A DNA stretch of 64,000 bases, from NCBI RefSeq assembly GCF_009914755.1, contig NC_060946.1, one strand, 5' to 3'. A model generated the notes under the pieces. That model was not told the origin of the DNA. It did no database searches and saw only the letters and a list, made by a program, of their open reading frames with translations. Position numbers and translations under genes: made by a program. Origin of the DNA: the human T2T-CHM13v2.0 reference genome, Homo sapiens. This document shows positions 57,099 through 60,259 of the stretch, one piece after another (the stretch's first letter is position 1; every line of letters starts with the position of its first letter).

Positions 57099-57515
<417 letters not shown>

Positions 57516-58220: not shown

Positions 58221-58424
58221 ATGGGGTTCTTTTCCTGCCATCAAAAATCATGTTTCTTTTAAAAACAAGTTCAAACATTACCAAAGTTTATAGCACAGGA
58301 AATACGTCTTCTGTAATCTCCCTTAACCAATATATCCCTCAACATTCTCCTCACCCCCAACTCCACCCTCCCAGGATAACCAGTTGGGACATAATCTTTA
58401 TTTAAAAATGGTTTCCGGATAGAG

Positions 58425-58835
58425 AAAGCGCTTCGGCGGCGGCGGCAGCCCCGGCGGCGGCCGCAGGGGACAAAGGGCGGGCGGATCGGCGGGGAGGGGG
58501 CGGGGCGCGACCAGGCCAGGCCCGGGGGCTCCGCATGCTGCAGCTGCCCCCGGGCGCCCCCGCCGCCGCCCTCGCCGCGGAGCCGGCGAGCTAACCTGAG
58601 CCAGCCGGCGGGCGTCACGGAGGCGGCGGCACAAGGAGGGGCCCCACGCGCGCACGTGGCCCCGGAGGCCGCCATGGCGGACAGCGGCACCGCGGGGGGC
58701 GCGGCGTTGGCGGCCCCGGCCCCGGCCCCCAGGCCAGGCAGTGGCGGCCCAGGACCACGCATCTACTTTCAGAGCCCCCCCCGGGGCCGCAGGAGAGGGC
58801 CCGGGCTGCGCGGATGATGAGGGCCCAGTGAGGCG
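58425..58835. promoter_or_regulatory. Intragenic CpG island imported with the retrocopy
   Basis: Abrupt switch to very GC- and CpG-dense sequence (CGG repeats, GGGCGG boxes) inside AT-rich flanks. Confidence 0.85.
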
Positions 58836-59124
58836 CCAAGGGAAGGTCACCATCAAGTATGACCCCAAGGAGCTACGGAAGCACCTCAACCTAGAGGAGT
58901 GGATCCTGGAGCAGCTCACGCGCCTCTACGACTGCCAGGAAGAGGAGATCTCAGAACTAGAGATTGACGTGGATGAGCTCCTGGACATGGAGAGTGACGA
59001 TGCCTGGGCTTCCAGGGTCAAGGAGCTGCTGGTTGACTGTTACAAACCCACAGAGGCCTTCATCTCTGGCCTGCTGGACAAGATCCGGGCCATGCAGAAG
59101 CTGAGCACACCCCAGAAGAAGTGA
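58773..59124 (+). CDS. LIMK2: Alternative last coding exon of LIMK2-1: PP1-inhibitor domain taken from the PPP1R14B retrocopy
   Basis: tctactttcag acceptor, phase-compatible with exon 15; APPGAAGEGPGCADDEGPVRRQGKVTIKYDPKELRKHLNLEEW...STPQKK*; exon 1b + exons 3-15 + this exon = 2061 nt = 686 aa + stop, the recalled LIMK2-1 length. Confidence 0.93.
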
Positions 59125-59364
59125 GGGTCCCCGACCCAGGCGAACGGTGGCTCCCATAGGACAATCGCTACCCCCCGACCTCGTAGCAACAGCAATACCG
59201 GGGGACCCTGCGGCCAGGCCTGGTTCCATGAGCAGGGCTCCTCGTGCCCCTGGCCCAGGGGTCTCTTCCCCTGCCCCCTCAGTTTTCCACTTTTGGATTT
59301 TTTTATTGTTATTAAACTGATGGGACTTTGTGTTTTTATATTGACTCTGCGGCACGGGCCCTTT

Positions 59365-59370
59365 AATAAA
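59365..59370 (+). terminator. Poly(A) signal of the retrocopy / LIMK2-1 last exon
   Basis: AATAAA 30 nt before the genomic A16 tail. Confidence 0.8.
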
Positions 59371-60259
59371 GCGAGGTAGGGTACGCCTTTGGTGCAGCTC
59401 AAAAAAAAAAAAAAAATGATTTCCAGCGGTCCACATTAGAGTTGAAATTTTCTGGTGGGAGAATCTATACCTTGTTCCTTTATAGGCCAAGGACCGCAGT
59501 CCTTCAGTAACACCAGTGTAAAAGCTTGAGGAGAAATTGTGAAGCTACACAGTATTTGTTTTCTAATACCTCTTGTCATTCTAAATATCTTTAATTTATT
59601 AAAAAATATATATATACAGTATTGAATGCCTACTGTGTGCTAGGTACAGTTCTAAACACTTGGGTTACAGCAGCGAACAAAATAAAGGTGCTTACCCTCA
59701 TAGAACATAGATTCTAGCATGGTATCTACTGTATCATACAGTAGATACAATAAGTAAACTATATTGAATATTAGAATGTGGCAGATGCTATGGAAAAAGA
59801 GTCAAGACAAGTAAAGACGATTGTTCAGGGTACCAGTTGCAATTTTAAATATGGTCGTCAGAGCAGGCCTCACTGAGGTGACATGACATTTAAGCATAAA
59901 CATGGAGGAGGAGGAGTAAGCCTGAGCTGTCTTAGGCTTCCGGGGCAGCCAAGCCATTTCCGTGGCACTAGGAGCCTGGTGTTTCCGATTCCACCTTTGA
60001 TAACTGCATTTTCTCTAAGATATGGGAGGGAAGTTTTTCTCCTATTGTTTTTAAGTATTAACTCCAGCTAGTCCAGCCTTGTTATAGTGTTACCTAATCT
60101 TTATAGCAAATATATGAGGTACCGGTAACATTATGCCCATTTCTCACAGAGGCACTACTAGGTGAAGGAGTTTGCCTGACGTTATACAACCAGGAAGTAG
60201 CTGAGCCTAGATCCCTTCCACCCACCCCATGGCCCTGCTCATGTTCCACCTGCCTCTAA

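What the first reader, a model, noticed from the sequence alone, without database searches (positions are those of the whole stretch)
58761..58817. One extra C both inactivates the PPP1R14B retrocopy and creates the LIMK2-1 fusion: the C8 tract is a three-state frame switch
Seen: the tract at 58775-58782 has 8 C. From the retrocopy ATG (58674) the frame reads MADSGTAGGAALAAPAPAPRPGSGGPGPRIYFQSPP, then shifts to RGRRRGPGLRG* (47 aa). The parent, recalled as ...YFQSPPGAAGEG..., needs 7 C. From the phase-2 exon 15 donor, 8 C is exactly what gives AG|A GCC CCC CCC GGG GCC in frame with the inhibitor domain. Derived: C7 restores a standalone 149-aa PHI-1-like ORF and truncates LIMK2-1 (APPGPQERARAARMMRAQ*). 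C8 gives the 686-aa fusion. C9 gives p.Gly574ArgfsTer12, a change I recall being reported in LIMK2 (unverified). Inference: a single slippage in a mutable homopolymer was the birth event of the chimera and should still toggle in populations and in mismatch-repair-deficient tumours.
Basis: partly seen in the sequence, partly recalled or inferred. Interest (0 to 1): 0.85.

Follow-up and report, generated by a model that had tools for sequence, protein, structure and literature searches.

The report
LIMK2-1 retrocopy exon, C8 frame tract
A run of eight C's, one more than in the parent gene PPP1R14B, puts a retrocopied phosphatase-inhibitor domain in frame with the kinase LIMK2 to make the already known LIMK2-1 protein, and a nine-C version that breaks it is already reported in people.

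Summary
Window 58775-58782 is C8. The parent PPP1R14B on chr11 has C7. The retrocopy's own ATG frame stops after 47 aa. The phase-2 donor of LIMK2 exon 15, joined to the annotated acceptor at 58771-72, reads the PP1-inhibitor domain in frame only with C8, giving 686 aa. The C9 allele is published as c.1711_1712insC, p.Gly574ArgfsTer12.

The tract is slippage-prone. It differs from the parent in 5 of 5 human PPP1R14B retrocopies and in length in 4 of 5. A younger, independent chr4 copy also has C8.

Three things are not shown:
- When the extra C arose. No primate DNA was reachable.
- That C8 was the only route to a fusion. 8 of 16 open AG sites, including one 2 nt downstream, would be in frame with C7.
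- Instability in mismatch-repair-deficient tumours. No paper was found.

The domain shows no clear purifying selection (pN/pS 0.72). LIMK2-1, its PP1-inhibitor domain and its great-ape restriction are published. The frame explanation is a neat, possibly unpublished detail of a known object.

The parts
57132..57289 (+). LIMK2 exon 15. Its donor (CAG|gttggt) is shared by all isoforms and leaves 2 bases of a codon (phase 2).
   Evidence: Sequence; CDS arithmetic, 1709 nt before the last exon.
58404..58416 (+). Left target-site duplication of the retrocopy (13 nt).
   Evidence: family D6: 58404-58416 and 59412-59424 match at 12 of 13 positions.
58418..59399 (+). PPP1R14BP1, a full-length processed copy of PPP1R14B mRNA. 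It lies in the sense orientation in LIMK2 intron 15.
   Evidence: It matches the four parental exons contiguously. 39 of 968 aligned sites differ from the parental mRNA.
58674..58817 (+). The retrocopy's own ATG frame: 47 codons plus a stop. It is cut short by the extra C.
   Evidence: Translation. 47 aa with no Pfam family.
58711..58716 (+). In-frame 6-bp duplication specific to this copy, upstream of the fusion exon.
58771..58774 (+). Tandem AGAG. The annotated acceptor AG is 58771-72 (exon starts at 58773). A second AG at 58773-74 would be in frame only with C7. The motif is inherited unchanged from the parental coding sequence.
   Evidence: (parent has the same TACTTTCAGAG).
58775..58782 (+). 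The C8 homopolymer. The parent has C7.
58773..59621 (+). LIMK2-1 alternative terminal exon. The CDS is 58773-59124. It runs past the retrocopy's poly(A) tail to a downstream ATTAAA.
   Evidence: RefSeq rows read. ATTAAA at 59598.
58828..59115 (+). PP1 inhibitor domain (Pfam PF05361). It includes the Thr596 codon at 58849-58851.
   Evidence: E = 3.9e-25, residues 19-114 of the peptide that starts at 58774. CPI-17 structure 1j2m, E = 6.4e-18. Thr596 is named.
59401..59416 (+). Poly(A) tail of the retrocopy. The retrocopy's own AATAAA is at 59365-70.
59412..59424 (+). Right target-site duplication.
   Evidence: family D6.

Best explanation
Shown. A full-length PPP1R14B mRNA was retrocopied, L1-style, into LIMK2 intron 15 in the sense orientation. 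The copy has a poly(A) tail and a 13-nt target-site duplication. The phase-2 donor of LIMK2 exon 15 can splice to a CAG|AG that was already part of the PPP1R14B coding sequence, 3 nt before a C homopolymer. The transcript ends at a poly(A) signal just beyond the copy.

The parent has C7 and this copy has C8. The extra base has two effects. It is the only lesion that breaks the copy's own ORF, leaving 47 aa. It also places the 113 downstream parental codons, which hold the PP1-inhibitor domain with Thr596, in the LIMK2 frame. The result is the 686-aa LIMK2-1.

Plus or minus one C gives LIMK2 proteins that end 11-18 residues after Arg570 and lack the inhibitor domain. Because the stop falls in the last exon, these transcripts should escape nonsense-mediated decay (inference).

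Inferred. The extra C most likely arose by replication slippage in the germ line after insertion. That would have turned a truncating alternative last exon into a kinase-inhibitor fusion. The tract keeps slipping, and the C9 allele is in human populations.
For: Retrocopy anatomy.

Tract and frames: C8 against parental C7. Frames and lengths. The acceptor motif is identical in the parent.

Domain: intact and recognised. PP1 inhibition depends on Thr596, with IC50 about 28-47 nM (abstract and passages of PMC12347249).

Mutability: the C7G4 block differs from the parent in 5 of 5 retrocopies and in length in 4 of 5 (chr22 +1, chr4 +1, chr2 -1, chr6 +3).

Independence of the chr4 C8:
- 4 sites where the parent and chr4 share a derived state against chr22, chr2 and chr7 show chr4 is younger.
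- chr4 shares none of the chr22-specific substitutions.
- The overlapping 5'UTR deletions differ, 15 bp against 21 bp.

C9 allele: 5 of 863 exome cases, 1 of 1,604 controls, and 151 in 27,173 ExAC individuals.

Chimpanzee: the predicted protein P0057 shares 6 of the 8 replacements specific to this copy, so the copy predates the human-chimpanzee split.
Against: Timing is untested. No primate DNA could be read.

The insertion age from 11 non-CpG lineage-specific substitutions in 774 sites (1.4%) fits a great-ape origin by insertion alone.

Other AGs would give an in-frame fusion with C7. This holds for 8 of the 16 AGs that are open up to the tract, including the adjacent AG 58773-74.

The domain shows no clear purifying selection. 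Nd is 8.5 and Sd is 3.5 over 113 codons, pN/pS 0.72. That is more replacements than in the non-exonised chr2 copy (3) or chr4 copy (1).

The chimpanzee model P0057 reads across the tract in a way that needs one more base than human, with an A in it. This may be a gene-builder artefact.
Confidence: 0.7

Rival explanations
1. The copy was born with C8, by reverse-transcriptase slippage or from an 8-C template. The fusion frame then existed from the day of insertion, and the birth event was the retroposition itself, not a later slip.
For: 2 of 5 copies carry exactly +1 C. The estimated insertion age (non-CpG 1.4%, range 0.6-2.3%) matches the great-ape restriction stated in the title of Tastet 2019 (title only), so no later event is needed.
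Against: Germ-line slippage over millions of years is expected to be far more frequent than a slip in one reverse-transcription event. This rests on general knowledge and was not computed here. The chr2 and chr6 copies show other length changes at the same block, which fits ongoing DNA slippage.
Confidence: 0.25
2. A fusion already existed with C7 through the adjacent AG (58773-74), reading Ser-Pro-Pro-Gly. The extra C then only moved the in-frame acceptor 2 nt upstream.
For: The tandem AGAG exists, and with C7 the downstream AG is in frame. The orangutan model P0001 joins foreign sequence to this same CAG|AGC site in a parent-type sequence, so the site is splice-competent elsewhere.
Against: The first AG after the branch point is normally chosen, and an AG 2 nt downstream is seldom used (general knowledge). 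There is no transcript evidence here.
Confidence: 0.08
3. The frame match is incidental. LIMK2-1 is a tolerated by-product isoform whose PP1i part drifts neutrally.
For: pN/pS is 0.72 with 8.5 replacements, including loss of the conserved Arg after Tyr-Asp (Pro601). The C9 truncating allele is about as common in ExAC (151 of 27,173) as in colorectal cancer cases (5 of 863). A later review found no enrichment against gnomAD.
Against: There is no stop and no indel in 339 coding bases, whereas the 982-base copy has 6 indels. Published biochemistry shows phosphorylation-dependent PP1 inhibition. The counts are too small to exclude constraint.
Confidence: 0.2
4. The eighth C is a homopolymer error of the assembly.
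For: Homopolymers are error-prone in long-read assemblies (general knowledge).
Against: The curated RefSeq CDS fits the window exactly at 2061 nt. The published variant name c.1711_1712insC, p.Gly574ArgfsTer12, presupposes a C8 reference.
Confidence: 0.02

Closest known systems
LIMK2-1 (NM_001031801 / NP_001026971), the published LIMK2 isoform with a C-terminal PP1 inhibitory domain
   Same: It is this object: same exon, same 686 aa, same Thr596. The title of Tastet 2019 calls it Hominidae-specific (title only).
   Different: None of the papers I could read says the domain is a PPP1R14B retrocopy or mentions the C tract. PMC12347249 has 0 hits for retro, pseudogene, hominidae or frameshift. 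The PHI-1 review PMC11939891 has 0 hits for LIMK2, pseudogene or retro. The full texts of Vallee 2018 and Tastet 2019 were not available.
PPP1R14B / PHI-1 and the CPI-17 family (Pfam PF05361)
   Same: The last exon is 92% identical to PHI-1. It matches PF05361 and the CPI-17 structures. It keeps the Thr and Tyr of the inhibitory motif.
   Different: It has 8 replacements against the parent. One is Arg to Pro right after Tyr-Asp, which the authors link to no detectable MYPT1 binding. It also lacks the first 33 parental residues and is tethered to a kinase.
Chimeric genes made by a retrocopy landing in a host gene's intron, such as owl-monkey TRIM5-CypA and hominoid PIPSL (both recalled, not checked here)
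   Same: A processed copy in the sense orientation is captured by host splicing and donates a whole domain.
   Different: Here the acceptor lies inside the donor's coding sequence. The frame match depends on a +1 in a homopolymer, which at the same time kills the copy's own ORF.
Coding mononucleotide repeats that are targets in microsatellite-unstable tumours, such as the C8/G8 tracts of MSH6, BAX and IGF2R (recalled)
   Same: A C8 run in a coding last exon, with a documented germ-line +1 allele.
   Different: I found no report of somatic instability at this tract. Supplementary tables of the landscape papers were closed.

Membership tests
L1-mediated processed retrocopy | Intronless copy of a spliced parental mRNA | tested here: met
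   The four chr11 exons match the copy contiguously, and GT-AG introns are present only in the parent.
L1-mediated processed retrocopy | 3' poly(A) tail and flanking target-site duplication | tested here: met
   A16 at 59401-59416. The 13-nt duplication matches at 12 of 13 positions.
Exonised retrocopy / chimeric host-retrocopy transcript | Host donor spliced to an acceptor inside the copy, with the reading frame continuous into the copy's domain | tested here: met
   The RefSeq transcript is 2061 nt and in frame. The splice itself is taken from the annotation and from published cDNA use. It was not re-derived from reads.
CPI-17 / PHI-1 PP1 inhibitor family (PF05361) | Profile match above the curated cut-off | tested here: met
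   89 bits against a cut-off of 22.4, E = 3.9e-25.
CPI-17 / PHI-1 PP1 inhibitor family (PF05361) | Inhibitory Thr followed by the Tyr-Asp-Arg motif | tested here: inconclusive
   Thr596, Tyr599 and Asp600 are present. The Arg is replaced by Pro601.
CPI-17 / PHI-1 PP1 inhibitor family (PF05361) | Phosphorylation-dependent inhibition of PP1 | not testable with these tools
   Published for LIMK2-1: IC50 about 28-47 nM, and the T596A mutant is not recognised by the phospho-specific antibody (PMC12347249, abstract and passages).
Unstable coding mononucleotide repeat | Uninterrupted run of 8 or more in coding sequence | tested here: met
   C8 at 58775-58782.
Unstable coding mononucleotide repeat | Length variants observed in the germ line or over evolution | tested here: met
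   The C9 allele is in Table 1 of PMC4917884. 4 of 5 paralogous copies changed length at the block.
Unstable coding mononucleotide repeat | Recurrent somatic indels in mismatch-repair-deficient tumours | not testable with these tools
   There was no tumour data. 3 papers hold LIMK2 + microsatellite instability + frameshift; I opened one, which lists LIMK2 only in a sequencing panel, and the titles and abstract starts of the other two point to other subjects. Supplements were closed.

The most novel reading that the evidence does not exclude
The tract has toggled between states among great apes as well as between parent and copy. The retrocopy sat in the intron as C7 with its own intact ORF. 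A +1 slip in the great-ape stem created the kinase-inhibitor fusion. At least one lineage has since moved on: the chimpanzee model P0057 reads as if the tract region had one more base plus a compensating 20-nt loss, which would re-open a stand-alone ORF. On this reading the presence of LIMK2-1 protein is lineage-variable and set by one homopolymer, and the human C9 allele is the current instance.
Probability: 0.15. Interest if true: 0.65.

Novelty: already known. Interest (0 to 1): 0.33.

Why it matters
There are two practical points.

1. Variant interpretation. All 3 'disruptive LIMK2 mutations' that made LIMK2 a candidate colorectal cancer gene lie in the retrocopy-derived exon (c.1710-2061). 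They are c.1711_1712insC, c.1742dupG and c.2049_2050insA. They touch only the LIMK2-1 isoform and not LIMK2a or LIMK2b.
   - The main variant is the C9 length allele of this homopolymer.
   - Its tabulated ExAC count (151 of 27,173, 0.56%) equals the case frequency (5 of 863, 0.58%).
   - The signal therefore rests on a low control count (1 of 1,604).
   - LIMK2 has nevertheless entered a diagnostic panel.

2. Gene birth. This is a clean worked example. A cryptic acceptor inside a donor's coding sequence plus a single homopolymer slip turn a dead retrocopy into a functional domain of a host kinase.

Tried and rejected
Ape and monkey state of the tract.
- No tool reaches primate DNA.
- The protein word search with the last-exon peptide (116 aa) can only see proteins of 64-203 aa, so full-length LIMK2-1 orthologues (about 686 aa) were out of reach. 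222 hits passed and the best 120 were listed. 104 candidates of untold source had been left out beforehand.
- I aligned 16 of the listed primate and human entries. Only the chimpanzee model P0057 is of the chr22 type.
- No stop-free reference of 392 aa or more exists; the frame is open for only 172 codons.

Decoding the chimpanzee tract from P0057. This was inconclusive. The model has odd skips and cannot be told apart from a gene-builder artefact.

Idea that the chr22 and chr4 copies share a source, because both lack part of the 5'UTR and both have C8. Rejected, for three reasons:
- the deletions are 15 bp against 21 bp;
- no substitution is shared;
- chr4 is younger.

Idea that Pan models P0016 and P0027 are orthologues of the human chr4 copy. 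Rejected, because the residues differ.

Selection test on the PP1i part. Inconclusive. Pairwise pN/pS is 0.72, and on the chr22 lineage there are about 8 replacements against 2 silent changes.

Script error. One search printed swapped labels for the C7 and C9 classes of alternative acceptors. One search is the corrected table, and only one search is used for that point.

Literature.
- Tastet 2019 is not held, so I saw only its title in reference lists. Vallee 2018 was seen only as a citation.
- Searches that found nothing on the retrocopy origin: PPP1R14BP1 (2 irrelevant papers); LIMK2 + PPP1R14B + retrocop (0); LIMK2 + retrogene (3 held, 2 listed, neither title on this subject, not opened); LIMK2 + PPP1R14B + pseudogene (0).
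- The C7 allele name was searched with LIMK2 and gave 0 papers.
The supplementary data of PMC4917884 and the tables of the MSI landscape papers listed may hold counts for this tract.

Full report
What is there.

The run at 58775-58782 is exactly eight C's. It is the only C or G run of 8 or more in the 64-kb window. It is also the longest homopolymer in any LIMK2 coding exon; the other seven runs of 5 or more are 5-6 long.

It sits 3 nt inside the alternative terminal exon of LIMK2 transcript NM_001031801.2 (exon 58773-59621, CDS to 59124). That CDS sums to 2061 nt, or 686 aa. 1709 nt come before this exon, so the exon 15 donor leaves two bases of a codon.

The exon lies within PPP1R14BP1 (58418-59399). 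The four exons of PPP1R14B on chr11 match this copy contiguously. It ends in an A16 tail. It is flanked by a 13-nt target-site duplication, 58404-16 and 59412-24, matching at 12 of 13 positions. It is therefore a full-length processed retrocopy, in the sense orientation, in LIMK2 intron 15.

- From ATG 58674 the frame runs 47 codons and stops at 58815-17.
- The frame that begins at 58783 is the parental one.
- The parent has seven C's and encodes 147 aa.
- With the annotated acceptor AG 58771-72, only the eight-C state puts 58783 at a codon start.
- ATG-to-tract is 109 nt and post-tract is 339 nt, so one C fewer gives 36 + 113 = 149 codons.
- One C more makes residue 574 an Arg, and the frame from 58785 ends after 11 residues. 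That is p.Gly574ArgfsTer12.

All the derived statements are correct. Besides the extra C, the only coding indel against the parent is an in-frame 6-bp duplication at 58711-16. The extra C is therefore the sole lesion breaking the copy's own ORF.

The acceptor.

The motif TACTTTCAGAG is identical in the parent. The splice site is thus a cryptic one, carried in by the donor's coding sequence.

It is a tandem AGAG. The second AG (58773-74) would be in frame with seven C's.

Of the 25 AGs between 58418 and 58774, 16 have an open frame up to the tract. Of those, 4 are in frame with C8, 8 with C7 and 4 with C9. AG 58731-32 has 13 of 18 pyrimidines upstream, against 12 of 18 for the annotated site. 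So C8 is required for the acceptor that is used, but it is not the only conceivable route to a fusion.

Mutability and history.

Aligned to the spliced parental mRNA, the five human retrocopies differ from it as follows:

| Copy | Differing sites | Per cent |
|---|---|---|
| chr22 | 39 of 968 | 4.0% |
| chr4 | 15 of 879 | 1.7% |
| chr2 | 36 of 880 | 4.1% |
| chr7 | 68 of 922 | 7.4% |
| chr6 | 109 of 847 | 12.9% |

The C7G4 block differs from the parent in 5 of 5 copies and in length in 4 of 5. chr22 and chr4 are +1 and both are C8. chr2 is net -1. chr6 is net +3. chr7 has two C-to-T changes only.

The chr4 C8 is independent, for three reasons:
- At four sites the parent and chr4 share a state against chr22, chr2 and chr7, so chr4 is younger.
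- chr4 shares none of the chr22-specific substitutions.
- The overlapping 5'UTR deletions of the two copies are of different length, 15 and 21 bp.

Under a strict count, chr22 has 22 lineage-specific substitutions in 932 comparable sites. 11 of them fall in 774 non-CpG sites, or 1.4% (rough 95% range 0.6-2.3%). Against recalled primate divergences, that fits an insertion around the great-ape ancestor, with wide error.

The chimpanzee predicted protein P0057 shares 6 of the 8 replacements specific to this copy. One lies in a gap of the model. One is not shared: Arg where human has Trp, at the codon of 59005. The copy therefore predates the human-chimpanzee split.

Function and constraint.

The last-exon peptide matches Pfam PF05361 (E = 3.9e-25) and the CPI-17 structures (1j2m, E = 6.4e-18).

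PMC12347249 (abstract, introduction and passages read) reports three things:
- LIMK2-1 binds PP1c.
- It is phosphorylated at Thr596.
- It then inhibits PP1c and myosin phosphatase with IC50 about 28-47 nM.

My numbering from the window gives the same Thr596, at 58849-51.

Sequence evolution shows no clear constraint. Parent against chr22 over the 113 codons gives Nd 8.5 and Sd 3.5, pN/pS 0.72. The non-exonised chr2 and chr4 copies have 3 and 1 replacements.

The only hint of constraint is that the 339 coding bases have no stop and no indel, whereas the whole 982-base copy has 6 indels.

Population and disease.

Table 1 of PMC4917884 lists three LIMK2 variants:
- c.1711_1712insC, p.Gly574ArgfsTer12, in 5 of 863 exome cases, 1 of 1,604 controls and 151 in 27,173 ExAC individuals.
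- c.1742dupG.
- c.2049_2050insA.

All three map inside the retrocopy exon, at window 58774/75, 58805 and 59112/13. The case frequency (0.58%) equals the ExAC figure (0.56%). PMC7355797 reports no enrichment against gnomAD.

So the nine-C allele exists at low frequency. Whether it recurs or is one old allele is unknown.

I found no paper naming the seven-C allele. I found none reporting somatic instability of the tract. Supplements were closed.

Prior knowledge.

LIMK2-1 and its PP1 inhibitory domain are described in papers I could read. Its restriction to great apes I saw only in the title of Tastet 2019 in reference lists. RefSeq annotates the pseudogene over the exon.

In the library I could search, no paper links LIMK2 with a PPP1R14B retrocopy or mentions the C tract. 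I could not read Tastet 2019 or Vallee 2018, so they may say it.

Verdict.

The mechanistic reading is right for the human reference: one extra C kills the copy's ORF and puts the domain in the host frame. The evolutionary claim that a later slip was the birth event is plausible but untested. The tumour claim is also untested.

The object is already known. The frame explanation and its consequence for interpreting LIMK2 'loss-of-function' variants are useful but incremental.

Noticed in passing
L002 (G000 chr4:142434288-142435167, PPP1R14BP3): A younger retrocopy (1.7% from the parent) carries the same +1 C (C8). Otherwise it has an ATG, no gaps in the 147 parental codon columns, no stop after the tract and only 2 replacements. 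Its ORF seems to be disabled by the same slip alone.
   Followed up: partly
window 58774-59113 (LIMK2-1 last exon): All 3 disruptive LIMK2 variants behind the colorectal cancer candidate-gene claim of PMC4917884 lie in the retrocopy exon and affect only LIMK2-1. The C9 allele is as frequent in ExAC (151 of 27,173) as in cases (5 of 863).
   Followed up: yes
window 58771-58774: The acceptor is a tandem AGAG. The downstream AG would be in frame with seven C's and out of frame with eight.
   Followed up: partly
protein P0057 (chimpanzee UniRef model), against window 58674-59121: The model switches frame twice before the domain. It needs a 20-nt skip between two CCCAGG and one more base than human at the tract, with a His codon. 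It also lacks 17 residues of the domain. This may be an artefact or a real chimpanzee difference.
   Followed up: partly
protein P0001 (orangutan UniRef model): Foreign N-terminal sequence is joined to a parent-type PPP1R14B sequence exactly at the same CAG|AGC site, in the ATG frame. This suggests the cryptic acceptor is used elsewhere too.
   Followed up: no
window 58864-58866 (Pro601) and 59005 (Trp): The Arg of the conserved Tyr-Asp-Arg motif is Pro in LIMK2-1. Arg to Trp at 59005 is a CpG transition that is absent from the chimpanzee model and paralleled in the chr7 copy.
   Followed up: partly
window 58577 (5'UTR part of the copy); L002: Overlapping but different deletions, 15 bp in chr22 and 21 bp in chr4, fall in the same GC-rich repeat of the parental 5'UTR. 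This is a second recurrent slippage spot.
   Followed up: yes
parental mRNA positions 99, 245, 397 (chr11): At three sites the present human parent differs from all retrocopies that cover the site, so these are changes on the parental lineage. One of them is a silent Gly codon change next to Cys582.
   Followed up: no
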